From positions 9,814 to 73,813 of the IMG/VR virus record IMGVR_UViG_3300044506_000032: DNA of 64,000 bases. One strand, given 5' to 3'. Within the stretch, counting starts at the first letter, position 1. Every line of letters starts with the position of its first letter. Shown here piece after piece: positions 4,049 through 43,836 of this stretch. Under the pieces are notes generated by a model, which did no database searches, was not told where the DNA came from, and saw only the letters and a program-made list of their open reading frames with translations. Origin of the DNA: a virus. Lineage: Duplodnaviria; Caudoviricetes. Both the position numbers and the translations under genes were made by a program.

Positions 4049-4059
4049 GGAGGCTGCTG

Positions 4060-14240: not shown

Positions 14241-14250
14241 CGTGCTGCTC

Positions 14251-14511: not shown

Positions 14512-14568
14512 GGTGCTGCTCCTTGTCGGGTGGCCCGGCCGGTGGCGTGCCGGCCAGGCGCGGGGTGG

Positions 14569-21803: not shown

Positions 21804-21820
21804 GTGGGTCTCCTGGGTGG

Positions 21821-26101: not shown

Positions 26102-27367
26102 TCAGATCGCGCCGGTGCGCTGCGCGAACTCCCGCAGCCCCGGCACCGTCGACGGCCCGTACAGCAGCCCCGCGGTCATCGCCCGCAGCGCCGGCCGCCG
26201 AACCTCCTCCGGCGCAGCCTGCTCGACCTGGCGCAGCGCGGCGAACGTGCGCTTCTGGTCGCCGAGCCGGTGCCACATCCGCGCCACATCGGTCGCGGCC
26301 CGCGCAGCGCGTTCCGCCGACGTCCACGACACCGCGCCCAACCTGGTCGCGTAGGGCACGCCCTCGTCCGGGGTGCCGAGCGCGTTGTGGACGCTCACCC
26401 AGTACGAGTCGACCTGCGTGGCGGTCGCGTCCACGGTGAACAGCATCCGGCCCGGGGCGGCAGACGCCCGCTCCACCATGCTGCCGGCATGGCCCATCAG
26501 GTCGAGCGCATCGCTGCGCCGCCCGTCGGACGCGGCCGTGTAGGCGGCGGTGAGCAGCATGGTCGCGGCGACAGCCTGCTCAGCCGGGCGGCCGGAGTCG
26601 AGCTGGGTCGCGGTCTGGCGCAGCAGGTCGACGGCGGCACCGGGCCGGCCGGCGCGGCGCATGGTGATCCCGAGGACCCGGGCGGCCTCGCCGATCACCA
26701 CGGGGTCGCCAGAGGCGCGTGCCGCTGTGAGCGCCCGGTCGGCGGTCAACCAGGCCATGTCCGAGTGCTGCTTGAACGCGAGCTCGGTCGCGAGGACGTA
26801 GGCGCGCGCCACGGCCGCCTGCGCCTGCTCCCGGGCCTGTCCCGACGCGGCGTCACGGGTCGCCTCGGCAGCCGCCAGCAGGGCCGGAAGATGCTCGCCA
26901 AGGGCGCCGTATCGGGCCCCGGTGAAGTCGGCCTTGGCGGCGGCCAGACCCTTCTGCAGTCGGGGCAGCGGGACCGCCTCGGCGGCCGGCGGGGAGAACA
27001 GTGCCGACTCCAACCCGGCAGCCGGATCCGCCTGCGCAGGGCGCGGCGTGGCAGCGGCGGCCGGCAGGCCAGCCGCGAGGGAGATGCTGATGCCCGCGGC
27101 TCCAGCAAGTAGTTCTCTGCGGCGCACCGCGTCCTCCTGGGGGTCGTGGCCTGACGCGACCACCCTAGCGAGGCCGAGCCGTGCGGGGTCGATGTCGAGC
27201 ACTGTGGCGAAACGGGCGAGAGTGTCGTGGTTGGGCTGTAAGCGGCCGGCTTCGATGCGGCTGATGCTGGACGCCGAGTAGCCGGTGGCGTGGCCAAGCT
27301 GACCTTGAGTCATGCGGGCTACGGAGCGGGCTCCGCGGATGATGTCGCCGATGTCGAGCGCGCTCAT
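26102..27367 (-). CDS. XRE HTH plus TPR-like helical regulator
   Basis: IRGARSVARMTQGQLGHATGYSASSISRIEAG; Ala-rich helical repeats; ALRQVEQAAPEEVRRP. Confidence 0.85.
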   Translation of the reverse strand: MSALDIGDIIRGARSVARMTQGQLGHATGYSASSISRIEAGRLQPNHDTLARFATVLDIDPARLGLARVVASGHDPQEDAVRRRELLAGAAGISISLAAGLPAAAATPRPAQADPAAGLESALFSPPAAEAVPLPRLQKGLAAAKADFTGARYGALGEHLPALLAAAEATRDAASGQAREQAQAAVARAYVLATELAFKQHSDMAWLTADRALTAARASGDPVVIGEAARVLGITMRRAGRPGAAVDLLRQTATQLDSGRPAEQAVAATMLLTAAYTAASDGRRSDALDLMGHAGSMVERASAAPGRMLFTVDATATQVDSYWVSVHNALGTPDEGVPYATRLGAVSWTSAERAARAATDVARMWHRLGDQKRTFAALRQVEQAAPEEVRRPALRAMTAGLLYGPSTVPGLREFAQRTGAI

Positions 27368-27426
27368 GGTTGCCCTCCCGAGCATGAACGTCTGCGCCCC
27401 TGCATTGACTGTGCGTCAGCCCATCA

Positions 27427-29097: not shown

Positions 29098-29595
29098 TTA
29101 GTAGTCGCTCGGGACAGCGACGAAGAGGTTGTGGACGCGGCGTGGGCCGAGGCGGCGCTTCCCCGCCTTCTTGAACGCGCCCTCCTGGACTAGCCGCGCG
29201 CTGTATACGACGGCGGTCCCGTAAGGGATGCCGAGCTGCTCCTCCAGGTCGCGACAGCTGAAGGGCTGATCACCGAAGTGCTCACAGGCGAGAGGGTGGA
29301 GATTCATGGAAGGGAAGCGATCGCCTTGATAGGGCGTCGAGTTGTAGACGACGTTGTGTTCGGGATGCTCCGCAATGATGCTCTCCCGTTCTGCTTCGGC
29401 AGCCTCCTTGCGAGATGAGTACCAGGTCACCTCGTAGGTAGCAACGTTCGGCCACCAAGCCTTGTCGGCGTGGGAGTACCAGCGCTTGGCTGGCTCATCG
29501 CAGATCCCGATGTAGAGCAGTTCGCCGCGCTCGTTGAGGAAGCGATAGAGGGCAACCTCACCCGGGTTCGTCCGATTGATCATTTGGCCCCGCAT
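29098..29595 (-). CDS. GIY-YIG nuclease family protein with C-terminal wHTH
   Basis: VALYRFLNERGELLYIGI..RW..H..WW..AERESI..EHPEHN; start at 29595 or 29583. Confidence 0.8.
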   Translation of the reverse strand: MRGQMINRTNPGEVALYRFLNERGELLYIGICDEPAKRWYSHADKAWWPNVATYEVTWYSSRKEAAEAERESIIAEHPEHNVVYNSTPYQGDRFPSMNLHPLACEHFGDQPFSCRDLEEQLGIPYGTAVVYSARLVQEGAFKKAGKRRLGPRRVHNLFVAVPSDY

Positions 29596-29902
29596 GGCCC
29601 GCAGTCTCACCTGTCTGACCCTCGCCCTTCTTTGGTCGCTTCGAGCCACGGAGCCCCTTCGAGATCTGCTGGGCGCGGGTGAAGTGGATCCCCAGTGCGT
29701 CGCCGATCTCCTGCCAGGTCTTCCCTTGGTTCCTCATGCGAAGGACGCGCTGCTGGCGAATCTCTCGCAGGCGTGCGTGGCTCTCGGGCCAGTTCTGGAG
29801 GACGTCGGTGATCGCCTTGGCGCATGCGGCGTCGTCGTCGATCTCTTCCAGGGCCTTGATGGCGTCCACGAACCTCAGTACCTCCTCTGGCTGATCTGTC
29901 AC
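29558..29902 (-). CDS. Small HTH repressor-like protein (switch C)
   Basis: KTWQEIGDALGIHFTRAQQISKG; paralogue of 16340-16639. Confidence 0.8.
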   Translation of the reverse strand: MTDQPEEVLRFVDAIKALEEIDDDAACAKAITDVLQNWPESHARLREIRQQRVLRMRNQGKTWQEIGDALGIHFTRAQQISKGLRGSKRPKKGEGQTGETAGHAGPNDQSDEPG

Positions 29903-29944
29903 TTCGCGCTCTCCTTTCTCGGACAGGAGAGCGCCACAGCCAGA

Positions 29945-29991
29945 ATGTTAGACCCCCGCTCTTGCTTTCACCTAGACCCCGGGTCTAACTT
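29945..29991. promoter_or_regulatory. Divergent promoters with TAGACCC operators (switch C)
   Basis: TTAGACCCCC (29948-57), TAGACCC-C-GGGTCTA (29973-87); TTGCTT-N18-TAACTT. Confidence 0.7.
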
Positions 29992-30107
29992 GTTCCTTGT
30001 GAGGCCGAACTCCTTGGTCTCCATAGCAACATGCCCCGGCCGGCGCGCCAACGCCGAGACCGGGGCCAGTCCCACCCTCACGCCGCTAAGCCGAGGAGAG
30101 CAGGACC

Positions 30108-30323
30108 ATGCAGAAGAGTACCCAGAACACCCCCTCCGGCGGCAGCCCCGCGCCCGCCGCGAGCAGCGCCGATGCGCTCGCCAACGCCCAGGCCCGCGCC
30201 AACGACATCGCCAACCAGTTCGTCAACGCCTCCCACGCGACCCACGCCGAGCGGGCCGCCATGGTCCAGGACCTCAAGGCCGCCGCCGCCGAGCTCGACC
30301 GTCTCGAACGCGGCGGCGCGTGA
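30108..30323 (+). CDS. Hypothetical protein
   Basis: GAGGAG RBS; first gene of the rightward operon. Confidence 0.65.
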   Translation: MQKSTQNTPSGGSPAPAASSADALANAQARANDIANQFVNASHATHAERAAMVQDLKAAAAELDRLERGGA

Positions 30324-30556
30324 TGTTGATCGCCGCCTTGTTCGTCTGGCTGGTGATGATCCCGCTCGCCGCGTACCAGGTCGTACTGAACCGGCGCCTG
30401 AAGCGGCTGGCCGCCGAGCGTGTCGCTGACGCCGCAGGCCTGCCGCCCGAAAGCAGCTCCGAGCCCCGATTCGGTCACCTGCTTCCCGGCGCAGCACACG
30501 GCAAGCTGCCGGCCCGCTCCGACGTCCGCTACGCCACCTTCAAGGAGGAGCAGTGA
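30323..30556 (+). CDS. Single-TM membrane protein
   Basis: TGATG overlap; MLIAALFVWLVMIPLAAY. Confidence 0.55.
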   Translation: MLIAALFVWLVMIPLAAYQVVLNRRLKRLAAERVADAAGLPPESSSEPRFGHLLPGAAHGKLPARSDVRYATFKEEQ

Positions 30557-30735
30557 CCCCCGCGACCCGCATGGCCTACACCCTGACCGCCGGCAACCAG
30601 CAGTACACCGGCACCACCACCGTCTACGGGGCCGTCGAGATCAGCGAGACCGTTGCCGCGATCGCCCAGCACCACCACGTCCCCACCGCCGACGCGCAGC
30701 TGACCCTCACCCCGAAGCAGGAGGTGCAGCGATGA
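30553..30735 (+). CDS. Hypothetical protein
   Basis: AGGAGGAG RBS; coupled. Confidence 0.6.
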   Translation: MTPATRMAYTLTAGNQQYTGTTTVYGAVEISETVAAIAQHHHVPTADAQLTLTPKQEVQR

Positions 30736-30872
30736 ACCTCAACGACATGCCCTTCACCGAGGCCGACCTCGACCGGGTGCAGGACCTCACCAACGCCTTC
30801 CACTACGCCCAGCAGGACATCGCGAAGGGCTCCGACGACATCGTCTACCAGCTCACCGGCCAGCAGCTGTGA
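30732..30872 (+). CDS. Hypothetical protein
   Basis: GGAGG RBS; coupled. Confidence 0.55.
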   Translation: MNLNDMPFTEADLDRVQDLTNAFHYAQQDIAKGSDDIVYQLTGQQL

Positions 30873-31066
30873 GCACCATCGCCGAGCACGACGCGGACCT
30901 CAAGGTCATGCGCGGCTCGCTCACCCCCGAGAGCCCGATCAACCGGGACGACGACCTGGCCGTCGCGCTCGAGCTCTACCGCCTCTACGGAGGCGACCCC
31001 ACCACCGAAAGGAGCAACGCCACGTGCAGGAGCAGCAGCACACCACCGGCCCTCGCAGCGAGGTAG
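30869..31066 (+). CDS. Hypothetical protein
   Basis: GTGA overlap. Confidence 0.45.
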   Translation: MSTIAEHDADLKVMRGSLTPESPINRDDDLAVALELYRLYGGDPTTERSNATCRSSSTPPALAAR

Positions 31067-31170
31067 ACCCCCGCGAGTTCGCCCAGGCCATCGGCCGGCT
31101 CTTCGGAGACGCCCCAGCCCCGCCGAAAGAGCCCGGCTGGAAGCTCTGCCCGGAAGACGACGACGACTGA
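31024..31170 (+). CDS. Hypothetical protein (48 aa)
   Basis: AAAGGAG RBS, GTG; TGATG overlap with the next gene. Confidence 0.5.
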   Translation: MQEQQHTTGPRSEVDPREFAQAIGRLFGDAPAPPKEPGWKLCPEDDDD

Positions 31171-31433
31171 TGGTGGCGCAAGCAGCCAACTGGTGGGAGC
31201 GCCCCGACGACGACATCCGCACCCAAGGCGGCGGACGGGTCACGGCCTACGTGACCGTCACGATCAACGCCTTCTTCCACTGCACCGGCTGCGACGAAAC
31301 CGTCCAGGTCACCACGCACACCGAAGCCGACCCGACTCACCTGCAGAACGAGATCCTCGCCAGCCTCACCGGCGCCAATTTCCACGCCGACGCCCACGCC
31401 AAGACCTGCACCAAGACACCGGAGACCACGTGA
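31170..31433 (+). CDS. Small Zn-binding protein
   Basis: FHCTGC..AHAKTC. Confidence 0.6.
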   Translation: MVAQAANWWERPDDDIRTQGGGRVTAYVTVTINAFFHCTGCDETVQVTTHTEADPTHLQNEILASLTGANFHADAHAKTCTKTPETT

Positions 31434-31634
31434 CCGAGCAACCCGACCCCGACCCCGACGACCAGGAGGCCCACCGTCTGCTCACCGAGCAGGCCAGCAG
31501 CAGCGAACACACCGTCTACGTCCCCGACCCCACCTGAGGAACCCCAGCGCGTCCCCGGCAGCAGGCCGGCACGGGCCCACGACCCAGACGCGCACCAGTA
31601 CCGCCAACACCAACCCAGCCCGAAAGGCCAAGCC

Positions 31635-32603
31635 GTGACCGAGCCCGACGCCACCACTGACCGCGCCCACTGGGCATGGCGACCAGTCGTCACCGCCGTG
31701 CTCGCCCTGGTCGCCTGGTCCGTCTCCACCTACCTCCACAACTACGTCCACGTCCCCTGGATCCTCGCCATCCTCGGCGCCGCGATCTTCGACCTCTCCG
31801 CCCTCATCCTCGCCGACCTCGCCCACCGCGCCACCAACAGCGGCGACACCGCGGCAGCCCTCATCTACGGCACCGGTGTCGCCCTGTTCACCGCGGCCTC
31901 CGCCGTCGTCAACTGGCTCCACGCCCAGGTCGCCGGCTGGGGCGTCGCCGGCGGAATCCTCTTCGCCGGAGCCCCGATCGCAGCCGAGATCCTCTTCGTT
32001 GCCCAGCACTGGTTCCAGCACCGCCGCAAGCTCCGCCGCGACGGCAAGCTCGGCGACGCCCTGCCGCGCCTCGGCCTCCTGTCATGGTCGTTCTTCCCGA
32101 ACCGGTCCAGGAAGGTCATCAAGGCCGTCATCGAGTCCCGGCTCGACACGATCGAGACCGTTGCTGTCCGGCACGCGGAACTTGCCCGGGCAGCCGGGCA
32201 AGACGCCCCGGGCATGCCCGGGCAGGTGCCCGGGCAACAGGGCGAGCTGCCCGGCGCCCGCCCGGACAACGCCCTGCCGCCCCAGACGCTCCGCCTCGAA
32301 ATCGCCACCACGCCCTCCAGCGCCCACCCGGTGGTCGGGCAACTCGTGCCCGCTCGGGTACCGCGCCCGGCCGTCGTGCCCGAGCCCGTCCTCACCGCCC
32401 AGGCACCGGACGGGCAGGAGACCTCGCAGCCGGATCTGAGCATCGCGCAGGCCGTCCGGATTGCCATCGAGGAGATCGGCACGGACGTCGACGCCGTCAC
32501 CGCCCGGGCAGCCGAGCTCAAGCCCGAATCCGACCGGGCAAACGTCCGCCGCGAAGCCCGCCGTCAGACCGGCAAGCTCCCCGGCACCGGCCTCTACATG
32601 TGA
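31635..32603 (+). CDS. SpdA/DUF2637-like spread membrane protein
   Basis: Four TM helices (AAIFDL..ASAVVNWLHA..GAPIAAE), Pro-rich linker, C-terminal HTH-like helices. Confidence 0.65.
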   Translation: MTEPDATTDRAHWAWRPVVTAVLALVAWSVSTYLHNYVHVPWILAILGAAIFDLSALILADLAHRATNSGDTAAALIYGTGVALFTAASAVVNWLHAQVAGWGVAGGILFAGAPIAAEILFVAQHWFQHRRKLRRDGKLGDALPRLGLLSWSFFPNRSRKVIKAVIESRLDTIETVAVRHAELARAAGQDAPGMPGQVPGQQGELPGARPDNALPPQTLRLEIATTPSSAHPVVGQLVPARVPRPAVVPEPVLTAQAPDGQETSQPDLSIAQAVRIAIEEIGTDVDAVTARAAELKPESDRANVRREARRQTGKLPGTGLYM

Positions 32604-33797
32604 CCCCGGGAAGGACCCCAACGCCATGCCGAACCACGTCCAGCCGCCCCGCTACAGCCTCACCGCCGACACCGTGGAAGCCAGCCTCAACGCCCTCCAC
32701 GCGGCCCAGCAGCTCATCGAAGGACACCTCGCAGCCGTCGCCCCCGGCTCCCCCCGCACGCAGTTCAAGGCCGCCAAGAGCGCTCCCATGGTCCTGCGGA
32801 TCGATCTCGACCTCGGGCCACTTCTCGACCGGACCAACGGCACCATCGATGGCCTCACGCCGAGGCCCGAGCCGGCCAAAGACGAGGGACTGCCCACCAC
32901 CGAGGGCACCCCCAGCTACCTCTGAGTCCCACTCACGCGCTGGCGTCGTCGTCGACGTCGACGAGTCCCCTCCCACCCCCCCCTGACGTGCCGTTACCCC
33001 CCTCCAGAGCCGGGCGACGACAACGACGACTACGACTACGACGAGAAGGAGAGCCCCGGTGCCTGACACCGAAGCGCCCGCAGCGCCGCTGCCCACGGCC
33101 CCGGCCGAGTACCTCCCCGAGCCCGACGAATCCGTGTACGTCACCGCCCCGCCGGCCCCCGAGGAGCCGCAGCCGATCGACTGGACCGCGCCCTCGCCGA
33201 TCGCGGAAGCGGCCCTGAACGACGACCCCCGCGAGCCGCGGTCCGCCCGCACCCGCGGCGTGCCGGCAGCCCCCGCCATGGTGGCCGCCGCCAACGGCAT
33301 GGCCCTGGCGGCCACGACCGCCTACGAGGTCGGCGGGCTGATGGCCCTTGCCTCCACCGCGACCGTGCTCCTGGGCGGTACCGGGGCCCTGGTGGGCCGT
33401 CGCCGCTCCACCGTCCGCAACCGCAAGGCCGCGGCCGCCGGCGCCGCGAAGACCCTCGGGGCGACCAACCGCGCGGCGAATGCCCGCACGGGCGCCGGGC
33501 GCTCCGGGGCCGGGGCGGGCAACGTCTCGGGCGGCGGCCGGGCAGGGGGCGGCCGCGGCCGGGACACGGCCGGGCACACCCGCGGCGGCCACAGCGCAGC
33601 AGGGCACCGTGCGGGCGGTCTCGACAGCCGCCCGTCCGGTGCCCGGGCAGAATCCGGTGGCCCGGGCACGGGCGGGCGCCGGGCGGCGGGCAACGGGCTG
33701 CCCGGCGCCAGCGCAGCCCCGATGCCGGGCGGGCGTGCGGGCGTGCCCGGGCAGGGCGCCCGGGCAACCGGCGGCCGCCAGGCTGCCGCCCCGGGCA
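32185..33797 (+). repeat. Clustered CCCGGGCA octamers (candidate TraB recognition sequence/clt)
   Basis: 10 exact copies: 32185, 32207, 32217, 32229, 32503, 33642, 33661, 33746, 33759, 33790. Confidence 0.55.
32626..32925 (+). CDS. Hypothetical protein
   Basis: GGAAGG RBS. Confidence 0.55.
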   Translation: MPNHVQPPRYSLTADTVEASLNALHAAQQLIEGHLAAVAPGSPRTQFKAAKSAPMVLRIDLDLGPLLDRTNGTIDGLTPRPEPAKDEGLPTTEGTPSYL

Positions 33798-34747
33798 AGG
33801 GCGGCATGCTCGCCCGGATCGCCGACCGGCTCGCCGGCGGCACCGGCAAGAGCGGACCGAAGAAGAAGAGCGACGGGCCGAAGAACAAGCCCGACGGTCC
33901 GAAGAAGACCGACCGCGCGAAGAAGAACGACAAGCCGAAGAGCACCGACCAGACCGACCCGTCCTCCCCGGCCGACCAGACGCCGGCGAGCCGCACCCGC
34001 CGGTCCGCCGCGGCCGCCGCACGACTCGCCAAACGAGCCGCAGCCCGAACCGGACGGCTTGGCGCCGAAGGGCTGCGCCGCAGCAAGCCCTACCGCGACA
34101 AGGCCGCCGCAACTGTCCGCCGTGCCGCAGCGAAAACCGGCGGCGCCGGCTGGGACGCCACCGCGGCCCTGACCCGAGGCGTCCTGGCCGCCCTGCGACA
34201 CCGCGACCTGCGCACCGGTTGGGAGCGGCTGCGCGAAGTGTGGCGCCGACGCCGCCAGGACCGTGCCACCCGCGCCGCCCGCAAGAACGCCGCCAAGACC
34301 CAAGACACCGCGGCGCCCACCGTCGCCGACACCGTCCGCCGACCCTCCACCGCCATGACCGCCCGCACCACGACCGCAGCAGGAGCCTCCATGTCCGGGC
34401 ACCACTTCCTCGCCTCCGCCACCGAGATGGCCCGCGCCGCCTCCGCCTACGACCCCACCGGGATGCTCCAGGTCGGCCAGGACTTCGCCGGCCTGCAGGA
34501 GTCCCTCGAACTGGTCGCCCAGTCCATGAAGATCAGCACCGACAAGGCCGACGCGAAGCAGCCGCTCGACCCCCGCATCATCGAGATGATGCGCGGCATC
34601 TACCAGCTGCAGATGAAGGCCGCCCAGCTCGCCTCCGAACTGCCCGCCGCCTTCGAGCAGCTCCACCAGGTCGACCTCCAGCGCCTGCGCAACCCCCGCA
34701 AGGGCGCCGCCGGCGAGCGCATGTGGGACGTCAGCACCAACCTCTGA
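33059..34747 (+). CDS. TraA-like transfer accessory protein
   Basis: TM pair, Gly/Arg/Lys-rich linker, C-terminal helical domain (GMLQVGQDFAGL..LRNPRKG..WDV) recalled from pJV1/pSN22-type TraA; directly upstream of TraB. Confidence 0.55.
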   Translation: MPDTEAPAAPLPTAPAEYLPEPDESVYVTAPPAPEEPQPIDWTAPSPIAEAALNDDPREPRSARTRGVPAAPAMVAAANGMALAATTAYEVGGLMALASTATVLLGGTGALVGRRRSTVRNRKAAAAGAAKTLGATNRAANARTGAGRSGAGAGNVSGGGRAGGGRGRDTAGHTRGGHSAAGHRAGGLDSRPSGARAESGGPGTGGRRAAGNGLPGASAAPMPGGRAGVPGQGARATGGRQAAAPGKGGMLARIADRLAGGTGKSGPKKKSDGPKNKPDGPKKTDRAKKNDKPKSTDQTDPSSPADQTPASRTRRSAAAAARLAKRAAARTGRLGAEGLRRSKPYRDKAAATVRRAAAKTGGAGWDATAALTRGVLAALRHRDLRTGWERLREVWRRRRQDRATRAARKNAAKTQDTAAPTVADTVRRPSTAMTARTTTAAGASMSGHHFLASATEMARAASAYDPTGMLQVGQDFAGLQESLELVAQSMKISTDKADAKQPLDPRIIEMMRGIYQLQMKAAQLASELPAAFEQLHQVDLQRLRNPRKGAAGERMWDVSTNL

Positions 34748-34797
34748 CCCACCACCAGCCCACCACCCGACACCCACAGACAAGGAACACACCCGTC

Positions 34798-36951
34798 ATG
34801 AAGGTCGACTGGGACGCCGGACACGGTCCGCTCACCGGCCCCCTCAACACCGCCGGAGCAGCCCTCGCCGCCTCCTGGGCCGGACACGCCGCCCACATGC
34901 CCCCCGCATGGGCAGCCGTCGGAGCCGGCACCGGACTGATCGGCCACCACATCGCCGGCATCCGCCACCACGTCACCCGCGCGAGCCTGGCCCTGCGCGC
35001 CGCCACCTGGATCGGCGCAGGCGCCTGGTGCTCCTGGGCGCTGGCCACCACCCCCTGGTCCGCAAACAGCCTGGGCGCACTCGGCGCCGGAACCGCCGGC
35101 CTCGGCATGGCCTGGATCGGCGAGACCCGCGCGGGCCGCCGCGCCGACCAGAAGGCCGCCGAGGCCCTCGCTGCCGAACGCCGACTGGCCGCCAACGAGA
35201 GGACCAACAAGCTCGCCGCCGAATGGCAGGCCCGCTTCGCCCGCGTCTGCCACATCGACGACGTGCGCATCGTCGCCATTGAGCACTGGCCCACCGGCAG
35301 CGGCTACACCCTCGAGTGCGAGCCGCCCGCCGGCGGCACCACGTGGCGTCAGATCGCCGCCGACAGCGAACGCCTGGCCGCCGACGCCAAACTCCCCGAA
35401 GGCTGCGGCGTCCAGGTCGGCCCCGGCGCCCACCGCGGCGCGTTCCTCGTCGAGGTCACCACCGTCAACCACCTCATCGAGGACGTCGACTACCCCGAGG
35501 ACTACAGCCCGCTCAGTATCAACGAGCCGGTCCCCGTCGGCGTCTACCCGGACGGCACGACCGCCGAGCTCGACCTGCGTGAGGCCACCACCCTGCGCGT
35601 CGGCCAGCGCGGAAGCGGTAAGACGAACGAGATGAACGTCGGCATCGCCGCGGGCGTGCGCATGGTCGACAACCTCGACTGGGTCATCGACCTCAATGGC
35701 GGCGGCCTCGCCCTTGCCTGGCTCCACGCCTGGCAGAAGGCCGGGCGCCCCGGCCGGCCCCCGATCGACTGGGTCGCCGACACCCCCGAGAAGGCCCTGC
35801 TCATGTCCGAGTCCGCCGTCGCCATCGCCAAGGCACGCAAGACCGGATACAAGCACCTCGAGATCGAGGCCAACGACGACAAGACCCCCCTGAGCGCCAC
35901 CCTGCCCGGCATCCGGATCCGCTGCGATGAGATCGCCGAGCTGTTCAGCCCCAAGGCGCAGCGCGACCCGCTCCTGCGCCAGGTCGCCGCGAACCTCGTC
36001 CAGCTGGTCGAGATCGCGCGCGCCGCCGGCCTCAACGGCGACCTCGCCGGCCTGCGCGCCACCCAGGACGTCCTCAGCGAGCCCCAGCTCCTCAAGCAGT
36101 CCTTCATCCGCATCGGCCTGCGCGTCACCGACCAGGCCGAACTTGCCTACCTGTTCGGTTGGGAGGACAAGGCCACCCCCGAGGACGCCCCTTACCCGGG
36201 CTCCGGCCTCCTCAAGGTCGGCTCCGCGCCGGCGCGCCCGTTCAAGGTCTACCGGCTCAAGCCCGCCCAGATCGGCGACATCGTCGCCGCGTGCAGCGAC
36301 TTCCAGCCCGAACTCGACGACCTGTCCCGCCAGGCGGCCGGCGACGCCTACACCGACCGCTGGGAAGGAACCGACCACCTCTTCGGCCTCGCCGCCACCC
36401 CGGCCCCCGCCGCACCCGCGGCCGCCACCACCTCCGACAGCAGCGGCGAGACCCGCCGGTCCGTCACCTCCGACTGGGACAGCCCGACACCGGCACCGAA
36501 CATCGACACCACCGTCAACGACGCCATCAACGACACCGACCAGCTCCTCGGCAAGATCCACCAGGCCATGGACGAAGCCTCCAGCCAGGACGACGAGCTG
36601 AACCGGAAGTTCCTCGAGGTCCTCGGCGAAGGTGGCGCCCTGTGGAAGCCCCCCGCCGACACCGCGCCCCAGCCCGCCCCACAGCCCAACGACGACCCCA
36701 CACCCACCCCCGGCATCGCAGACGACGCCCGCTGGCCGACCGTGTTCAGCATCGTCGCCAAAGCCGGACCCGGCGGCATCGGCCCGGAAGCCATCCGGGA
36801 AGCCTTCACCACCCTGCAGCCGGACGTGCCACCCCCGTCCCGCGCGGCCATCACCGACTGGCTCAAGGCCGAACCCCAGGTCTACAAGCCCATGCGCGGC
36901 ACGTACGCCCACATCAAACACCGCACCGACACCCCCGGAGAGCAGCCATGA
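34798..36951 (+). CDS. traB: TraB FtsK/SpoIIIE-like conjugative DNA translocase
   Basis: N-terminal TM segments, Walker A GQRGSGKT (35602-25), Walker B IRIRCDE, ARAAG..LRATQ, C-terminal winged-helix-like domain. Confidence 0.8.
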   Translation: MKVDWDAGHGPLTGPLNTAGAALAASWAGHAAHMPPAWAAVGAGTGLIGHHIAGIRHHVTRASLALRAATWIGAGAWCSWALATTPWSANSLGALGAGTAGLGMAWIGETRAGRRADQKAAEALAAERRLAANERTNKLAAEWQARFARVCHIDDVRIVAIEHWPTGSGYTLECEPPAGGTTWRQIAADSERLAADAKLPEGCGVQVGPGAHRGAFLVEVTTVNHLIEDVDYPEDYSPLSINEPVPVGVYPDGTTAELDLREATTLRVGQRGSGKTNEMNVGIAAGVRMVDNLDWVIDLNGGGLALAWLHAWQKAGRPGRPPIDWVADTPEKALLMSESAVAIAKARKTGYKHLEIEANDDKTPLSATLPGIRIRCDEIAELFSPKAQRDPLLRQVAANLVQLVEIARAAGLNGDLAGLRATQDVLSEPQLLKQSFIRIGLRVTDQAELAYLFGWEDKATPEDAPYPGSGLLKVGSAPARPFKVYRLKPAQIGDIVAACSDFQPELDDLSRQAAGDAYTDRWEGTDHLFGLAATPAPAAPAAATTSDSSGETRRSVTSDWDSPTPAPNIDTTVNDAINDTDQLLGKIHQAMDEASSQDDELNRKFLEVLGEGGALWKPPADTAPQPAPQPNDDPTPTPGIADDARWPTVFSIVAKAGPGGIGPEAIREAFTTLQPDVPPPSRAAITDWLKAEPQVYKPMRGTYAHIKHRTDTPGEQP

Positions 36952-37457
36952 CCACCACCAACCTCATCCCCCAGCAGTCCGCACACCAGGAAGCCTTTGC
37001 CACCACCGACGACATCCAGGCCGGCCGGGTCACCGGCGTCGGCTACGCCGTGTCCGTGGAGAGCGGAAAGCCGATCCCCGTGTACGTCTCCGACACCCCG
37101 CCGCCCCAGCCCGCGCCCACCCCACCGACCGTGCCGGCCCCCCAGCCTCAGCAGGTCATCGTCCAGCAACAGCCCCGCGACCCGTGGCCGGCTCGCATCC
37201 TCGCCTCCGGTGGAACCATCGCGGGAGTCGCCGCCACCGTGGGCCACTTCGCGACCGAACTCGGCCAGGCCGCCCACGCAGGGGAGGCGATCGGGATCGG
37301 CGTCGGCGCGGCAGCAGCCGGCCTGTGGCTCCTGAAGGGCAGCAGCCCCAGGGTCAGCGTCACGATCAACAACAGCAACACCGGGGCCAGCTCGTCGTCC
37401 AGTTCCACCAGCAGCTCCAGTTCGGCGTCCGGCTGGAGGTCCCACTCGTCCAACTGA
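36948..37457 (+). CDS. Spd-like two-TM spread protein
   Basis: ATGA-coupled to traB; Pro-rich region, two hydrophobic helices, Ser-rich tail. Confidence 0.55.
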   Translation: MTTTNLIPQQSAHQEAFATTDDIQAGRVTGVGYAVSVESGKPIPVYVSDTPPPQPAPTPPTVPAPQPQQVIVQQQPRDPWPARILASGGTIAGVAATVGHFATELGQAAHAGEAIGIGVGAAAAGLWLLKGSSPRVSVTINNSNTGASSSSSSTSSSSSASGWRSHSSN

Positions 37458-37586: not shown

Positions 37587-38015
37587 ATGAGCCGCATGGT
37601 CAAGCCACGCCTCACCGTCGACGAGCACGCGGAGCTCGGACGCACCCTCGCCGGAATCCGGGACGAACTCCAGCACCGAGCCGTCCAACTGGAAAACGCC
37701 TACCCCCGGTCCGGGATCGAAGCCCAGCCGGCGCGCAAGCTGACCGAGATCTACAAGGCCATCGACAAGGTCCGCGACCTGCTGGAGAACGCCCTCTACC
37801 GGGAACACCCCGAGGTGGCCACCACCCACATCTACAACCCGCAGCGCCAGGACCGGGCCATCGTCACCATCCCAGCCACCAGCAGCGAACCCGACTGCCC
37901 TGCCGCCGGCTGGACCGCCATCGGCACCACGCCGCTCCGCCTCATCTGCAACAACGAGCCGCACGACGGCGAGCAGCACCACGACATCGTCCACGGCGAC
38001 TGGAGAAGCCCGTGA
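37587..38015 (+). CDS. Hypothetical protein
   Basis: GC3 bias; GTGA overlap with the next gene. Confidence 0.6.
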   Translation: MSRMVKPRLTVDEHAELGRTLAGIRDELQHRAVQLENAYPRSGIEAQPARKLTEIYKAIDKVRDLLENALYREHPEVATTHIYNPQRQDRAIVTIPATSSEPDCPAAGWTAIGTTPLRLICNNEPHDGEQHHDIVHGDWRSP

Positions 38016-38686
38016 CCATCCGCGTCGGCGGCATGACCGTCCCCCTCGAAACCGCGGCCCGATGGACGGCCGCCTACTTCGACGAGGAAGCCAACCTCAC
38101 CTCGAAGAGCCCCTACGCCTACCCGTTCTACGACCGCTACGACGGCGGAGCCGAACAGGATGGCCTCAACGGAGGCGACTTCCTCGCGCCCGTCCTGCTG
38201 AACGCCAACCCGAAACTGGTCGGCTACCGCACCCTTCTCAAGCTCAAGGCTCACTTGGTGCAGGGCCTCGCAGCCATACCGCTCGACCTCACCCTCCAGA
38301 CCGCCGTCGAGGCCGACATCCACCGCGAGCTCCTCGCCTGCCTGGTACAGCCGATCGACCCGCACGGCGCGCCCGGCATCAAGCTGACCATGCTCGCAAA
38401 GGTGCTGCACCGAAAGCGCCCGCTGTTCTTCCCGGTGTACGACTCCTACGTCCGCGCGTGCTACGTCGGCCGAGCCAAGCGTTTCCCGATGCGCAACCAG
38501 ACTGGCCGACTGGACTCGGTGTTCATCGGCGAGATCGCCACCTACATGGTCGCCGACCTGGCCAGCCAGCCCGAGCCGTGGAAGCAGCTCGCCGCGATCG
38601 CGCCGGCCGGAGTGTCTCCGCTGCGCCTGCTGGACGTCGTCGCCTGGAACGCCGGACGGAAGATCGCACCTCAAGTTGACGAATAG
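38012..38686 (+). CDS. DUF6308-like protein
   Basis: YAYPFYD, KVLHRKRPLFFPVYD, SPLRLLDVVAW. Confidence 0.65.
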   Translation: MTIRVGGMTVPLETAARWTAAYFDEEANLTSKSPYAYPFYDRYDGGAEQDGLNGGDFLAPVLLNANPKLVGYRTLLKLKAHLVQGLAAIPLDLTLQTAVEADIHRELLACLVQPIDPHGAPGIKLTMLAKVLHRKRPLFFPVYDSYVRACYVGRAKRFPMRNQTGRLDSVFIGEIATYMVADLASQPEPWKQLAAIAPAGVSPLRLLDVVAWNAGRKIAPQVDE

Positions 38687-39687: not shown

Positions 39688-41010
39688 ATGACACTGTCCA
39701 TGGTCACTCTGACCGGCCGCTACCAGACCCCGACCGGCGGCCCCGAGACCGGCACGGTGACGTTCACGCCGGCCACGACTCTGCAGTCGTCCTCGTCCAC
39801 AATCATCATCCAGCCGCAGCCCGTCACCGCCACCCTCGACGGCACCGGCTCGTTCTCCGTCTCCCTCCTGGCCACGGACGCGACCGGGGTCACCCCCACC
39901 GGCTGGACCTACACCGTCAGCGAGAAACTCGGCCCCGCGACCGCGCAGGTCGGCCGCACCTACAGCATCCAACTCCCGCAGGCCGTCACCCCCGTCGACC
40001 TGTCCACCATCTCCCCGGTCTCCCCGTCCGGCCCCGTCAGCCAGTTCGGAGCGCTCGGCAGCAACAACACCTGGACCGGCACCAACACGTTCTCCGCCGC
40101 GGTCGCGCTCAACGGCGGCGTCACCCTGGCCAGCGCGCTGCCCATCAACCAGGGCGGCACCGGCGCCACCAGCGCCCCGTCCGCCCGGACCGCGCTCGGC
40201 CTCGGCACCGCATCGACGTCGAACATCGACGTCACCAACACCGACATCCAGCCCCTCGGCACCCAGGCAGCCGGCAGCACCGGCCAGATCGCCGACGCCG
40301 GACACGTCCACCCGATGATCGCCGGAGCAACCACCGGCGCCCAAGGCATCGTTCAGCTCGCGGGTGACCTCGGCGGCACCGCCGCCTCCCCCTCCGTGCT
40401 CAAGGTCAACGGTGTCAGCGTCACCGGCACCCCCGCCGCCGGGTACGTCCCCTTCGCTTCCGGCACCACCGCCGCAAGCTGGTCCCCGATGGGCGTGCCC
40501 CTCAAGTCGACCTACTACTACCCGTCGGACGGTCAGGGTGGCTCGCGCACCATGACCTACCAGCTGCTGTGGATCTTCCCGTTCGACCTTCAGCGGGCCA
40601 TCACCATCACCAAGCTGGCCTGCAACGTGACCACGGCCGGCACCGCAGGCAGCACCATCCGCCTCGGCATCTACAGCTCAGACGGTGCAGGAGGCATAGG
40701 CAACCTGCTGATCGACGGCGGCACCGTCGCCGGTGACAGCACCGGCATCAAGACGGCTACCATCTCGCAGGCCGCGGGCCCCGACCGGATCTGGCTGTGC
40801 GCCGCATGGCAGGGAACCAACACCACGGCACCGGTCCTGCAGGGCTACGCCCGGTCCGCGCCGTTCATCGGCTGGAGCAGCTTCGTGCAGTTCCCCCCGT
40901 TGATGGGCTACCAGTACGCGGGCATCACCGGCGCACTGCCCGCTAGCCTGGCCGCACCGACGAGCAACGAGAACTCGATGCTGCCCGCGGTGCAGTTCAC
41001 TCCGCAGTGA
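39688..41010 (+). CDS. Tail-fibre-like virion protein
   Basis: GGTGATSAPSARTALGLG, GHVHP and GIVQLAGDLGG fibre repeats; N-terminal GTVTFTP..WTYTVSE anchor domain. Confidence 0.7.
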   Translation: MTLSMVTLTGRYQTPTGGPETGTVTFTPATTLQSSSSTIIIQPQPVTATLDGTGSFSVSLLATDATGVTPTGWTYTVSEKLGPATAQVGRTYSIQLPQAVTPVDLSTISPVSPSGPVSQFGALGSNNTWTGTNTFSAAVALNGGVTLASALPINQGGTGATSAPSARTALGLGTASTSNIDVTNTDIQPLGTQAAGSTGQIADAGHVHPMIAGATTGAQGIVQLAGDLGGTAASPSVLKVNGVSVTGTPAAGYVPFASGTTAASWSPMGVPLKSTYYYPSDGQGGSRTMTYQLLWIFPFDLQRAITITKLACNVTTAGTAGSTIRLGIYSSDGAGGIGNLLIDGGTVAGDSTGIKTATISQAAGPDRIWLCAAWQGTNTTAPVLQGYARSAPFIGWSSFVQFPPLMGYQYAGITGALPASLAAPTSNENSMLPAVQFTPQ

Positions 41011-41975
41011 CCGCCTACGGGTATCCCGTTCCGCAGCTCCCCGTCCCGCATGCCATCCCGCGCGTTGCCCCGAAGGTGCCGGCGTCGGGCAAGATGCTCA
41101 TCGGCTCGCAGGCGCTGGATCCGGTTGTTGGGCTCGGTGGCTGGCTGACCGCGGCCGGCTTGTCGAGCGTGGGCGTCTACAACCAGTTCACCCCGGCCAT
41201 GGGGAGCTGGTGGACGACGCTCCTGCAGATCGGCAGCCAAAGCGGCCAGGCCATGGTCACGTGGAACTTCCCCGGCTCGCAGGGCACGCAGGCGTCCATC
41301 GCGGCCGGCGTCGATGACGCGTACATCGTCCAGTGCGCGACCGACGCCGCGAACTGGGGCTGGCCGATCTTCGTCAGGCCGCCGTGGGAGATGAACGGCT
41401 GGTGGTACAACTGGTCGCCCTACGACGGGAGTAACAACGTCCGCGCGGGTTGCGCGCCGACGGACTACGTCGCAGCATGGCAGCACTACCGGTCGATCTT
41501 CGCCAGCATCGCCCCGAACGTGTCCTTCGTCTGGTGCCCGCACCTTTGGATCCAGGGCAACCCTGCCGGCACCAGCCCATACCTCCCGACCGACTTCTAC
41601 CCGGGCGATGCCTACGTCGACTGGATCGGCATGGACGCCTACGGCGGGGCAGCGGACTGGACGTACATGCAGACCGGCCAGGGCTACGGCATGAACAACT
41701 GGGCCGCGTTCGCGACCACCCACAACAAGCCGCTGATGCTGTGCGAATGGGCGTTGAGCGACGGCGCCACCGGCGACAGCCCCACTTGGATGTCTAACCT
41801 GACCGGCTGGATGGACGCCAACCCGATCGCCCGGGCCGCGCTGTACTTCGAGTTCAACAACGGCGCCGGGCACAACTACTTGCTGGAGTCGCTGCCGAAC
41901 TCGGCCGCTGCCTTCCGCAGCTGGCTGTCGGCCACACCCAGCCGGTTCATCACCTCCGTACCACGCAGCGGCTGA
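41007..41975 (+). CDS. Glycoside hydrolase family 26 protein
   Basis: RPPWEMNG (acid/base Glu), FVWCP, FYPGDAYVDWIGMDAY, KPLMLCEW (nucleophile Glu). Confidence 0.85.
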   Translation: MTAYGYPVPQLPVPHAIPRVAPKVPASGKMLIGSQALDPVVGLGGWLTAAGLSSVGVYNQFTPAMGSWWTTLLQIGSQSGQAMVTWNFPGSQGTQASIAAGVDDAYIVQCATDAANWGWPIFVRPPWEMNGWWYNWSPYDGSNNVRAGCAPTDYVAAWQHYRSIFASIAPNVSFVWCPHLWIQGNPAGTSPYLPTDFYPGDAYVDWIGMDAYGGAADWTYMQTGQGYGMNNWAAFATTHNKPLMLCEWALSDGATGDSPTWMSNLTGWMDANPIARAALYFEFNNGAGHNYLLESLPNSAAAFRSWLSATPSRFITSVPRSG

Positions 41976-42523: not shown

Positions 42524-43810
42524 GTGAACCTCAACAACCTTCCGCTCTCCGACAAGCAGCTTCGGTCCATCGCGCAGTCCGAACGGCATCGCCTGTCAAT
42601 CTGGAGCGGCGCGGTACGCTCCGGAAAGACCATCGCCTCGCTGGTGGCGTTCCTCATCGCACTCGCCGCGGCCCCGTCCTCAGGGCTGATCGTGATCGTC
42701 GGACGGTCCCTGCAAACCATCGAGCGGAACATCCTCGAACCCATGCAGGACCCAGCATTGTTCGGACCACTCGCCAAGCACGTCCACCACACGCGCGGCG
42801 CAACCACCGCGGTGATCCTCGGCCGCACCGTGCACCTGATCGGCGCCTCCGACGCTCGCGCCGAAGGCCGTATTCGAGGCGCCACCGTGTGCCTCGCCAT
42901 GGCAGACGAGATCACGCTCCTGCCCGAGGGGTTCTTCAACCAGCTCCTCGCGCGTCTCTCCGTGCCCGGCGCCCGGCTGATCGGAACCACTAACCCCGAC
43001 TCGCCGGCGCACTGGCTGCGCCGCAACTTCCTGCTCCGCGAAGGCGAGCTTGACCTCGGGGCATGGCAGTTCACCCTCGACGACAACCCGTCCCTGGCGC
43101 CCGCCTACGTCGAGGCCCTGAAAGCCGAGTACGTGGGCCTGTGGTACCGCCGGTTCATCCTCGGCGAGTGGTGCGCAGCCGAGGGCGCGATCTTCGACAT
43201 GTGGGACCCCGACCTGCACGTCGCCGACATCCTGCCGCCCATCCGGTCGTGGCTGTGCGCCGCGATCGACTACGGCACCACCAACCCGCTGCACTGCGTA
43301 CTTCTCGGTATCGGCACCGACTCGTGCCTGTACGCCGTCTCCGAGTGGCGCTACGACTCACGGCAGTCCCGCCGGCAGATGACCGACTCGGAGTACACGC
43401 AGCGGATCCGCACCTGGCTGCAGGAGGTACCCGTGCCGGCGTCCCGGCGTGCGGATGGCAGCTGGCTGCGCGGCGTTCAGCCGCACTACATCGTCGTGGA
43501 CCCGTCGGCGGCGTCGCTGCGCACGCAGCTGCACCGCGAGGGCCTGAACCCGGTGGCCGGGAACAATGCCGTCCTCGACGGTATCCGGACGGTGTCGAGC
43601 CTTTTCGCGGCGAACCGACTGAAGGTCAGCCGGGACTGTCCGCAGCTCATCGCAGAAGTGCCTGGATACAGCTGGGATGACCAGGCCGCCGCGAAGGGCG
43701 AGGACAAGCCCATCAAGGTCGCCGACCACGGCGTGGACGCACTCCGCTATGCCGTGATGACCACGCGAAGCATGTGGCAGCACGAGATCCAACTCGCCAC
43801 CGCCGCCTAA
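42524..43810 (+). CDS. terL: Terminase large subunit, PBSX family
   Basis: GAVRSGKT (Walker A), ADE (Walker B), GTTNP, IDYGTTNP, DHGVDALRY. Confidence 0.95.
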   Translation: MNLNNLPLSDKQLRSIAQSERHRLSIWSGAVRSGKTIASLVAFLIALAAAPSSGLIVIVGRSLQTIERNILEPMQDPALFGPLAKHVHHTRGATTAVILGRTVHLIGASDARAEGRIRGATVCLAMADEITLLPEGFFNQLLARLSVPGARLIGTTNPDSPAHWLRRNFLLREGELDLGAWQFTLDDNPSLAPAYVEALKAEYVGLWYRRFILGEWCAAEGAIFDMWDPDLHVADILPPIRSWLCAAIDYGTTNPLHCVLLGIGTDSCLYAVSEWRYDSRQSRRQMTDSEYTQRIRTWLQEVPVPASRRADGSWLRGVQPHYIVVDPSAASLRTQLHREGLNPVAGNNAVLDGIRTVSSLFAANRLKVSRDCPQLIAEVPGYSWDDQAAAKGEDKPIKVADHGVDALRYAVMTTRSMWQHEIQLATAA

Positions 43811-43836
43811 CCCCAATCAGGAGAGGCGGTGCAGTG

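What the first reader, a model, noticed from the sequence alone, without database searches (positions are those of the whole stretch)
30108..37457. Mycelial conjugation module (SpdA-TraA-TraB-Spd) inside a tailed phage, co-oriented with the late genes
The TraB-type translocase (TM anchor, intact Walker A and B, C-terminal wHTH) and plasmid-type accessory genes sit between the immunity region and a complete head-tail operon. They are under a KorA/TraR-like divergent repressor. TraB alone can transfer dsDNA between hyphae, so this element may spread both as virion and by conjugation. Streptomyces plasmid-phages such as pZL12 are a precedent, but integration into a CI/Cro-DnaB siphophage with candidate cis sites and linked mini-switches appears little characterised.
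Basis: partly seen in the sequence, partly recalled or inferred. Interest (0 to 1): 0.85.

Follow-up and report, generated by a model that had tools for sequence, protein, structure and literature searches.

The report
Phage-borne TraB-like DNA transfer module
A Streptomyces tailed phage carries, just upstream of its packaging genes, a gene set related to the conjugation locus of the plasmid-phage pZL12, a set that proves common in Streptomyces phages and may move phage DNA directly between hyphae.

Summary
Window 30108-37457 is one co-oriented gene block. It holds six small ORFs, a 4-TM membrane protein (322 aa), a 99-aa protein, a 562-aa low-complexity "partner", a 717-aa FtsK/TraB-like ATPase and a 169-aa 2-TM protein. 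It lies between an XRE/DnaB early region and TerL-portal-capsid-tape measure genes.

The ATPase has no Pfam hit. Its model matches the FtsK motor (Foldseek E 2e-16) and ends in a confident three-helix-plus-wing domain.

- There is no GntR (KorA/TraR) repressor. The divergent regulator is a small HTH protein.
- The head-tail operon is cut at the record end.
- No integrase or partition gene is in the 73.8-kb record.

The block is not a separate AICE. It has no int or rep gene, no tRNA and no flanking repeats.

It is homologous to, and laid out like, the pZL12 region with the FtsK-like gene 71c. The same partner+ATPase pair occurs in isolated Hiyaavirus phages, in small plasmids and in many prophages. 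In 13 of 15 genome loci TerL or portal lies within 10 kb downstream.

Ten same-strand CCCGGGCA copies, in all three codon phases, lie upstream of the ATPase gene. Relatives carry other motifs at the same place. This is a candidate clt, which two parallel first-reader notes also flagged.

Verdict: new member of a known kind, function untested.

The parts
29558..29902 (-). Small divergent HTH regulator (114 aa). It is not a GntR/KorA-type protein.
   Evidence: GC1/GC2/GC3 pattern fits the - strand ORF. Pfam HTH_23 E 7e-5 and Sigma70_r4 E 0.017, both below cut-off. Homologues lie on the opposite strand 3-4 kb upstream of the TraB-like gene in L017, L018, L020, L021 and L024.
29903..30107 (.). Divergent intergenic region with the perfect 15-bp palindrome TAGACCCCGGGTCTA (29973-29987). 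This is a candidate operator/promoter of the + strand operon.
   Evidence: Sequence read. The palindrome was also picked up. An RBS-like GAGGAGAG precedes the ATG at 30108.
30108..31433 (+). Six small ORFs (71, 77, 60, 46, 65 and 87 aa), mostly start/stop-overlapping, of unknown function. One (30323-30556) has an N-terminal hydrophobic segment.
   Evidence: GC3 frame plot and start candidates. No significant family hits. Hydropathy.
31635..32603 (+). 322-aa polytopic membrane protein with about four TM helices in residues 13-127. It sits in the 'SpdA/pZL12.73c' position.
   Evidence: phrog_10376, E 2.4e-29. Hydropathy. 38% identity (E 3e-29) to the protein at the same position in pZL12-like contigs L023 and L030, which is a 69-70% homologue of the weakly DUF2637-matching protein of L016. 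Weak match to Keanu gp91 'membrane protein'. No direct Pfam DUF2637 match.
32626..32925 (+). 99-aa protein of unknown function. It is 100% identical at nucleotide level in relative L013.
32185..32510 (+). Upstream array: five copies of CCCGGGCA, three of them the palindrome TGCCCGGGCA, inside the 3' half of the 322-aa gene. Part of the candidate clt.
   Evidence: The copies lie in codon phases 0, 1 and 2.
33059..34747 (+). 562-aa 'partner' protein. It has a Pro-rich N-terminus, a hydrophobic helix region (about 67-113), a long basic Gly/Arg/Lys-rich disordered middle, and a conserved helical C-terminal domain (about 305-562).
   Evidence: Translation. AF2 model. The C-terminal domain family has 94 clusters, none with a Pfam hit. 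It is always directly upstream of the TraB-like gene in phages and plasmids. hhalign to pZL12.72c gives 92%.
33642..33797 (+). Proximal array: five copies of CCCGGGCA, two of them full palindromes, about 1.0-1.2 kb upstream of the TraB-like start codon. Part of the candidate clt.
   Evidence: In total 10 of the window's 12 + strand copies lie in the module. It is the top clustered 8-mer of the whole window. Relative L013 has 13 of 13 copies at the same two places.
34798..36951 (+). 717-aa TraB/FtsK-like dsDNA translocase. Domains: N-terminal hydrophobic helices, a long helix (89-151), a motor (157-530), a disordered linker, and a C-terminal wHTH-like domain (646-705).
36948..37457 (+). 169-aa protein with two hydrophobic helices. 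Its start overlaps the TraB stop (ATGA). A protein of 130-170 aa follows the ATPase gene in all relatives.
   Evidence: 57% identity in L008. Positional equivalents are Keanu gp95, pZL12.70c, and proteins in L006, L015 and L016.

Best explanation
The block is a pZL12-type DNA-transfer module that is a native part of a Streptomyces siphophage genome.

Proposed mechanism (inferred):
1. The operon is read from the divergent promoter at about 29.9-30.1 kb, which a small HTH protein controls.
2. The 717-aa FtsK-like ATPase assembles as a membrane-associated ring.
3. Its C-terminal wHTH recognises the arrays of CCCGGGCA repeats just upstream of its own gene. These arrays would act as a clt-like site.
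4. The ATPase then pumps double-stranded phage DNA through hyphal cross-walls or fused hyphal tips. The conserved partner protein, the polytopic membrane protein and the 2-TM protein assist, in the manner of Spd proteins.
5. The outcome is virion-independent spread of the phage genome within a mycelium, and possibly into neighbouring mycelia, in addition to normal packaging by the terminase encoded a few kb downstream.

Shown here: the gene content, the FtsK fold, the catalytic motifs, homology and synteny with the pZL12 region, conservation under purifying selection, tight linkage to phage packaging genes, and the repeat arrays.

Inferred: DNA binding to the repeats, ring and membrane assembly, and actual DNA transfer.
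For: 1. FtsK/TcpA-like motor: Foldseek E 2e-16 against 2iut and 6t8b. Walker A and B are invariant in 40 homologues.
2. A C-terminal three-helix-plus-wing domain at pLDDT about 95. Some homologues add a true FtsK-gamma domain (PF09397) after it.
3. Homology and synteny with plasmid-phage pZL12 genes 73c-72c-71c-70c, which lie upstream of terminase-like genes. PMC3583192 states that pZL12 transfer needs a major tra gene plus two adjacent genes.
4. The partner+ATPase pair also sits on small plasmids. pADI95-16c (10.5 kb) has no other annotated translocase. pSQ10 has the pair in a GntR-headed operon; only its ATPase was matched by sequence.
5. Distant homology to a GntR-linked FtsK/SpoIIIE 'TraB' of pDSM40587: hhalign 83%, E 9e-6, 399 columns.
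6. Ten directional CCCGGGCA copies in three codon phases, with only two more + strand copies in the other 60 kb. L013 keeps 13 of 13 copies in place.
7. In 36 of 41 related loci the most repeat-dense 400-nt window lies 0.7-2.9 kb upstream of the ATPase start. The motifs are specific to each group of relatives.
8. Purifying selection against L013: dN/dS 0.17-0.43.
9. Thoma et al. [quoted passage not shown]
Against: - No experiment exists on this element or on any close relative.
- The ATPase is only 28% identical to pZL12.71c. Which pZL12 genes form the tra locus is my recollection of Zhong et al. 2010, a paper I could not open.
- There is no Pfam PF01580 match and no GntR repressor.
- The repeat arrays lie in low-complexity coding sequence. 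In many relatives all copies share one codon phase, so some of the signal could be peptide repeats.
- L008 has the same putative recognition helix as the window but lacks CCCGGGCA. A simple helix-to-motif code is therefore not supported.
- The record has no integrase or partition genes, so the DNA form that would be transferred is unknown.
- Hiyaavirus phages carrying the module look virulent. That fits intramycelial spread but not plasmid-like conjugation.
Confidence: 0.6

Rival explanations
1. The tra block is a separate integrated element (an AICE or integrated plasmid) that landed inside a prophage and transfers on its own.
For: The partner+ATPase pair also occurs on small plasmids. Phage genomes are mosaic. 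GIY-YIG genes nearby show that mobile DNA does enter this region.
Against: - No tyrosine or serine recombinase is in the whole 73.8-kb record, and no rep gene lies in the block.
- The window has no tRNA and no exact direct repeats flank the block.
- The same block sits at the same place, between early genes and the terminase, in virion-derived Hiyaavirus genomes, in the circular 51.7-kb phage genome NZ_CP108596.1, and in 13 of 15 genome loci, with several different head modules.
- Relative L013 is collinear across both borders.
Confidence: 0.04
2. The ATPase works like FtsK/SpoIIIE in segregation. It clears or pumps the replicating or plasmid-state phage genome across closing sporulation or vegetative septa, so that spores and compartments inherit the phage. 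It does not move DNA between hyphae.
For: The fold is that of FtsK. Some homologues carry a genuine FtsK-gamma domain, and one relative has a stand-alone gamma protein in the operon. The directional 8-mers resemble KOPS-type guidance, which is my own knowledge. No partition genes were found that would otherwise secure inheritance.
Against: - The motif is clustered next to the gene, as in a clt. It is not spread along the genome, as KOPS would be.
- The module is also kept by apparently virulent phages, which need no inheritance.
- The closest characterised system is a conjugal transfer locus.
Confidence: 0.15
3. The module is a host-takeover, exclusion or defence cassette. For example, it might block incoming plasmids or phages, or act on host DNA, with no role in moving the phage genome.
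For: PHROGs files the family under 'moron, auxiliary metabolic gene and host takeover'. HerA/FtsK-like ATPases of defence systems appear lower in the fold list. Accessory genes such as DUF6308 sit next to the block.
Against: - The best structural matches are translocating FtsK and a conjugation coupling protein, not HerA.
- The conserved membrane partners and the repeat arrays match the logic of transfer loci.
- The same pair is the only annotated translocase on a 10.5-kb plasmid.
Confidence: 0.1

Closest known systems
tra region of Streptomyces plasmid-phage pZL12 / phage ZL12 (GQ919031: pZL12.73c-72c-71c-70c)
   Same: - Same gene order: membrane protein, large low-complexity protein, FtsK-like ATPase, then a protein of about 167 aa.
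- Same position upstream of terminase/portal-like genes in a tailed-phage genome.
- The ATPases are homologous (E 3e-35), and the partner motif is homologous (hhalign 92%).
[quoted passage not shown]
   Different: - Only 28% identity.
- pZL12 has a divergent GntR regulator (pZL12.80); this element does not.
- ParA and ParB are reported for pZL12. This record has no partition or integrase genes.
- The head-tail modules differ.
- The membrane proteins show no detectable sequence similarity.
TraB of conjugative Streptomyces plasmids (pSVH1 type) with Spd proteins and clt
   Same: - An FtsK-like motor, an N-terminal hydrophobic region and a C-terminal wHTH.
- Short repeated DNA motifs close to the gene.
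- Small membrane proteins in one translationally coupled operon.
- Distant profile match to a GntR-linked FtsK/SpoIIIE protein of pDSM40587.
   Different: - No PF01580 match.
- The repeats lie upstream of the gene rather than at its 3' end.
- No GntR TraR/KorA regulator.
- An obligatory large partner protein with no counterpart that I could identify in pSVH1.
- pDSM40587 carries both types side by side, which suggests two distinct systems.
'FtsK-like DNA translocase' genes of Hiyaavirus phages (Keanu gp91-gp95, Hiyaa, Galactica, Spocter)
   Same: A syntenic five-gene module. The ATPases are 36-39% identical, and the partner C-terminal domain is 34% identical. A GGTCCGG repeat cluster lies about 1.0-1.4 kb upstream of the ATPase gene.
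   Different: These are 82-kb phages with their own DNA polymerase. No integrase or repressor is annotated in the parts I inspected (1-50 kb and 59.2-79.0 kb). The module lies near the right genome end, not directly before the terminase in the linear map. No function has been published, to my knowledge.
FtsK / SpoIIIE chromosome translocases and TcpA of pCW3
   Same: Best structural matches to the motor domain. The use of an 8-bp guide motif read by a C-terminal wHTH is a shared principle, which I state from my own knowledge.
   Different: About 15-18% identity. The N-terminus and C-terminal domain differ. The gene is carried by a phage together with dedicated partners.

Membership tests
Streptomyces TraB-type conjugative dsDNA translocase | FtsK/RecA-like hexameric motor with Walker A and B | tested here: met
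   Fold match to the FtsK motor at E 2e-16, TM(target) 0.59-0.67. GQRGSGKT and D377/E378 are invariant. Hexamer formation was not tested.
Streptomyces TraB-type conjugative dsDNA translocase | Sequence membership in Pfam FtsK_SpoIIIE (PF01580) | tested here: not met
   No hit at E <= 0.01 in the protein scan and none at E <= 1 in the six-frame scan of the record. There is only a profile-level link to a PF01580-annotated plasmid protein (hhalign 83%).
Streptomyces TraB-type conjugative dsDNA translocase | N-terminal membrane anchor | tested here: inconclusive
   Three modelled helices (10-84) with no acidic residue in residues 7-108 (read directly from the translation), but Kyte-Doolittle hydropathy below 1.3 and pLDDT 54-61.
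Streptomyces TraB-type conjugative dsDNA translocase | [quoted passage not shown] | tested here: inconclusive
   The model shows H646-655, H663-673 and H682-691 plus short strands at pLDDT about 95. There is no Pfam hit for the domain alone. No domain-only fold search was run. DNA binding cannot be tested here.
Streptomyces TraB-type conjugative dsDNA translocase | Cluster of short (about 8-bp) repeated recognition sequences near the gene (clt) | tested here: met
   Ten CCCGGGCA copies in 32185-33797, all on the + strand and in three codon phases. Position-conserved arrays occur in 36 of 41 relatives. This meets the feature as a sequence pattern only; function is untested.
Streptomyces TraB-type conjugative dsDNA translocase | Control by a GntR-type Kor/TraR repressor | tested here: not met
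   No PF00392 match in the 73.8-kb record. The divergent regulator is a small HTH_23/Sigma70_r4-like protein. Some relatives (L008, L016, pZL12, pSQ10) do have a GntR protein.
pZL12-type tra locus of plasmid-phages | Homologue of the FtsK-like gene pZL12.71c | tested here: met
   tblastn E 3e-35, 28% identity over 557 aa. E 2e-26 in the database search.
pZL12-type tra locus of plasmid-phages | Adjacent large partner gene (pZL12.72c) and membrane protein gene (73c) | tested here: met
   The partner profile matches 72c at hhalign 92%, E 8e-7, over 58 columns. The membrane protein is equivalent by position and topology only.
pZL12-type tra locus of plasmid-phages | Location inside a tailed-phage genome upstream of packaging genes | tested here: met
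   The same holds in 13 of 15 genome loci.
pZL12-type tra locus of plasmid-phages | Plasmid maintenance functions (repA/iteron, parAB) allowing a plasmid state | tested here: not met
   No ParB_N or ParA (AAA_31) match in the record. The record is cut at one end, so absence from the phage is not proven.
AICE (actinomycete integrative and conjugative element) | Integrase plus replication initiator plus Tra within att-bounded DNA | tested here: not met
   No integrase, no tRNA and no flanking direct repeats.

The most novel reading that the evidence does not exclude
TraB-like modules with their own clt-like arrays are a general 'movement' device of phages of mycelial actinomycetes. Integrated, plasmid-state and even virulent phages (Hiyaavirus) would use them to push replicating phage dsDNA through hyphal cross-walls and into neighbouring hyphae without making virions. 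This would be a bacterial counterpart of cell-to-cell movement in plant viruses. Each phage lineage would have its own 7-8-bp address motif.
Probability: 0.35. Interest if true: 0.85.

Novelty: new member of a known kind. Interest (0 to 1): 0.55.

Why it matters
If the module works as inferred, many Streptomyces phages have two transmission routes: virions, and direct DNA pumping between hyphal compartments. That would change how plaque formation, prophage spread and phage-driven gene flow in antibiotic-producing actinomycetes are understood.

The survey here gives a concrete handle. It defines a phage-linked clade of FtsK-like translocases, an obligatory partner protein of unknown fold, and lineage-specific repeat arrays at a fixed distance upstream. 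All of these can be tested in cultured phages that grow on S. lividans, such as Keanu and Hiyaa.

On present evidence it remains an uncharacterised relative of a system shown once, in pZL12.

Tried and rejected
- Pfam and NCBIfam scans of all eleven module proteins gave nothing significant.
- A sequence search of the ATPase against PDB gave only a spurious hit.
- The model of the 562-aa partner is helical with a long disordered middle. The wide structural search gave only generic helical-hairpin matches (Z <= 7.5), so no function can be read from it.
- Complex prediction for the ATPase with the partner's C-terminal domain was not available, so binding was not examined.
- I looked for a clt at the 3' end of the ATPase gene or downstream of it, as in pSVH1 or pWTY27. 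No array was found there. The arrays lie upstream instead.
- A simple match between recognition helix and motif was rejected. L008 shares the window's helix but not its motif.
- I tried to walk along the 84.5-kb relative contig to find lysis or integrase genes. The attempt failed: one protein was not on record, and the other led to a different short contig. The genome search could not open that record.
- Zhong et al. 2010 (pZL12) and Vogelmann et al. 2011 (TraB/TRS) are not held. What I say about traA-traC naming and the pSVH1 GACCCGGA motif is from memory.
- Literature searches found no paper on the Hiyaavirus module or on traB-terL co-occurrence.


Full report
**Source and gene calls.** The window is the last 64 kb of a 73,813-bp IMG/VR virus record (linear, CheckV 99%). 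The DNA is about 70% G+C, so I called genes from third-position G+C. Between 30108 and 37457 all genes lie on the + strand:
- six small ORFs (30108-31433);
- a 322-aa protein (31635-32603);
- a 99-aa protein (32626-32925);
- a 562-aa protein (33059-34747);
- a 717-aa protein (34798-36951);
- a 169-aa protein (36948-37457), whose ATG overlaps the preceding stop.

**The ATPase.** Pfam and NCBIfam give no hit for any of the eleven proteins. PHROGs places the 717-aa protein in phrog_31069 'FtsK/SpoIIIE-like protein' at E 2e-91, and the 322-aa protein in an unnamed family.

I predicted the structure from 40 homologues (mean pLDDT 80, core above 90). The model shows:
- three N-terminal helices (10-84);
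- one long helix (89-151);
- an alpha/beta core (157-530);
- a disordered linker;
- a compact C-terminal domain (646-705) of three helices plus short strands, at pLDDT about 95.

The best PDB matches are the FtsK motor (2iut, 6t8b; E 2e-16 to 6e-16), followed by the conjugation coupling protein TcpA of pCW3. Walker A (GQRGSGKT, 269-276) and the Walker B acidic pair D377/E378 are invariant across the alignment. The N-terminal 100 residues contain no acidic residue, but they are only weakly hydrophobic. A membrane anchor is therefore probable, not shown. Some homologues carry an additional genuine FtsK-gamma domain after the family's own C-terminal domain.

**Phage context.** Downstream lie, in order:
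- a tail-fibre-like protein and a GH26-like protein (39688-41975);
- TerL (42524-43810);
- portal (43774-45621);
- a scaffold-like protein;
- major capsid (49048-49962);
- tape measure (56033-60136);
- a minor tail protein, cut by the record end.

Upstream lie DnaB and an HTH_36 protein (- strand), a 427-aa XRE regulator (26102-27385, -) and a GIY-YIG protein (29098-29649, -). The first 9.8 kb of the record encode an exonuclease, a DnaQ-like protein, RuvC, SSB and a second helicase.

The record has no GntR protein, no tyrosine or serine recombinase, and no ParA or ParB. The gene facing the operon is 29558-29902(-). It encodes a 114-aa protein with sub-threshold HTH_23/Sigma70_r4 matches. The intergenic region holds a perfect palindrome, TAGACCCCGGGTCTA. 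So a divergent regulator exists, but it is not of the KorA/TraR family.

**Is it a separate element?** No, on four grounds:
- There is no tRNA, and no exact direct repeats flank the block.
- There is no integrase in the record and no rep gene in the block.
- The close relative L013 (84.5-kb metagenome contig) is collinear across both borders. The tra core is its best-conserved stretch, at 92.8% nucleotide identity over 6.5 kb.
- The same arrangement occurs with unrelated head modules in the following:
  - the circular 51.7-kb 'plasmid' NZ_CP108596.1, which is a whole siphophage genome;
  - an integrated prophage of S. canus;
  - further contigs;
  - isolated phages of the genus Hiyaavirus, for example Keanu gp91-gp95, whose genomes come from virions.

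**Relation to known transfer systems.** Phage ZL12/pZL12 has the same order. A divergent GntR gene and small genes are followed by membrane protein 73c, the 766-aa protein 72c, the FtsK-like protein 71c, the 167-aa protein 70c, and then terminase/portal-like genes.
- The ATPases match at E 3e-35.
- The partner profile matches 72c at hhalign 92%, E 8e-7.
[quoted passage not shown] I could not open the primary paper.

The partner+ATPase pair is also found by sequence on the plasmids pADI95-16c and pDSM40587. On pSQ10 only the ATPase matched; a 563-aa gene sits upstream of it. pDSM40587 additionally carries a GntR-linked FtsK/SpoIIIE protein, which matches my profile only distantly (83%, E 9e-6). 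The phage-linked proteins therefore form a clade distinct from that protein, which by its GntR linkage and PGAP annotation I take to be a classical plasmid TraB. Thoma et al. 2015 had already suggested that Spd homologues on actinophages might help spread phage DNA.

**How common is it?**
- The ATPase has more than 260 clusters of homologues at 50-68% identity, nearly all from Streptomyces.
- The partner's C-terminal domain has 94 clusters, often on the same contigs.
- Of 15 loci found in species-representative genomes, 14 have the partner directly upstream. Thirteen have TerL or portal within 10 kb downstream.
- Twenty-six IMG/VR contigs carry a relative.
- Comparison with L013 shows purifying selection, with dN/dS 0.17-0.43.

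**Candidate cis site.** CCCGGGCA is the most clustered 8-mer in the whole window. Ten + strand copies, five of them the palindrome TGCCCGGGCA, lie at 32185-32510 and 33642-33797. Only two more + strand copies occur in the remaining 60 kb. The copies fall in all three codon phases of the two genes, which argues for selection on the DNA rather than on a peptide. L013 has 13 of 13 copies at the same two places.

Other relatives carry different motifs at the same distances (about -1.0 to -1.2 kb and -2.0 to -2.6 kb from the ATPase start codon):
- GTAGCGG in the S. canus-type group;
- CGCCACGG/CCGTGGCG in pZL12-like contigs;
- TCGGGGCG and AGGGCGCC in another group;
- GGTCCGG in Keanu and its relatives.

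In 36 of 41 loci the single most repeat-dense 400-nt window lies 0.7-2.9 kb upstream of the ATPase gene. From the locus lengths I estimate about six would fall there if placement were uniform.

Caveats:
- The loci are partly related to one another.
- The region encodes low-complexity protein.
- In many relatives all copies share one codon phase.
- L008 shares the window's putative recognition helix but not its motif.

Two parallel first-reader notes flagged the same octamer cluster. I verified it independently.

**Reading.** The best explanation is a pZL12-type transfer and spreading module native to the phage. A membrane-associated FtsK-like ring would be addressed by its wHTH to the upstream repeat arrays. 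It would move double-stranded phage DNA across septa or between hyphae with help from the partner and the membrane proteins.

Apparently virulent Hiyaavirus phages keep the module. This favours spread of replicating phage DNA within the mycelium as the common function. Plasmid-like conjugation, as in pZL12, would then be a special case.

The rivals are a segregation role at septa, an exclusion or takeover cassette, and a separate AICE. They are listed with odds. The AICE reading is essentially excluded.

**Novelty.** The element is a new member of a known kind. The survey results (phage-specific clade, obligatory partner, position-conserved lineage-specific arrays) are, as far as the searchable literature shows, not described. 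They make the hypothesis directly testable in cultured phages.

Noticed in passing
window 29098-29649 (-) and 18238-18660 (+): Two free-standing GIY-YIG nuclease-like genes. The one at 29098-29649 sits next to the small HTH regulator. In the close relative L013 a different 105-aa gene occupies that place, as expected for a mobile homing-endonuclease insertion.
   Followed up: partly
window 38012-38686: A DUF6308 protein (Pfam E 7e-38) lies just downstream of the transfer module. The segment 38012-38998 has no counterpart in relatives L013 and L032, which carry other small genes there. It may be an accessory or defence-type cargo gene.
   Followed up: partly
window 39688-41975: A tail-fibre-like protein (phrog_14726, DUF5907 repeat) and a weakly GH26-like protein are encoded upstream of the terminase, far from the tail module. 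Both are conserved in L013 and L032.
   Followed up: no
window 29973-29987: Perfect 15-bp palindrome TAGACCCCGGGTCTA, plus a TAGACCCCC half-site at 29949, in the divergent promoter region between the small HTH gene and the operon. A likely operator.
   Followed up: no
L003 7159-8652 and window 20406-21854: The record encodes two replicative-type helicases (phrog_6012 helicase and DnaB), plus exonuclease, DnaQ-like, RuvC and SSB genes. The replication/recombination arm is unusually large.
   Followed up: no
L011 (pDSM40587) 960-5236 and 9873-14749: One 29-kb Streptomyces plasmid carries both the phage-type partner+ATPase pair with a DUF2637 protein, and a GntR-linked FtsK/SpoIIIE protein with kilB. 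Two different translocase systems sit on one replicon.
   Followed up: partly
L015 7083-7292; proteins P0093, P0105, P0119: FtsK-gamma (PF09397) appears either fused to the C-terminus of the phage-type ATPase or as a stand-alone 69-aa protein in the same operon. This suggests modular swapping of DNA-recognition domains.
   Followed up: partly
window 42524-45621 vs L013 19037-21665: The two close relatives are 88-93% identical up to the first 760 nt of TerL, then fall to about 69% through the portal. This is a recombination breakpoint inside the terminase gene.
   Followed up: partly
L001 (NZ_CP108596.1): A record deposited as a 51.7-kb circular plasmid of Streptomyces sp. NBC_01177 is a complete siphophage genome, with terS/TerL, portal, capsid, tape measure, LysM lysin and a serine recombinase. 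It is either an excised prophage or a plasmid-prophage.
   Followed up: partly
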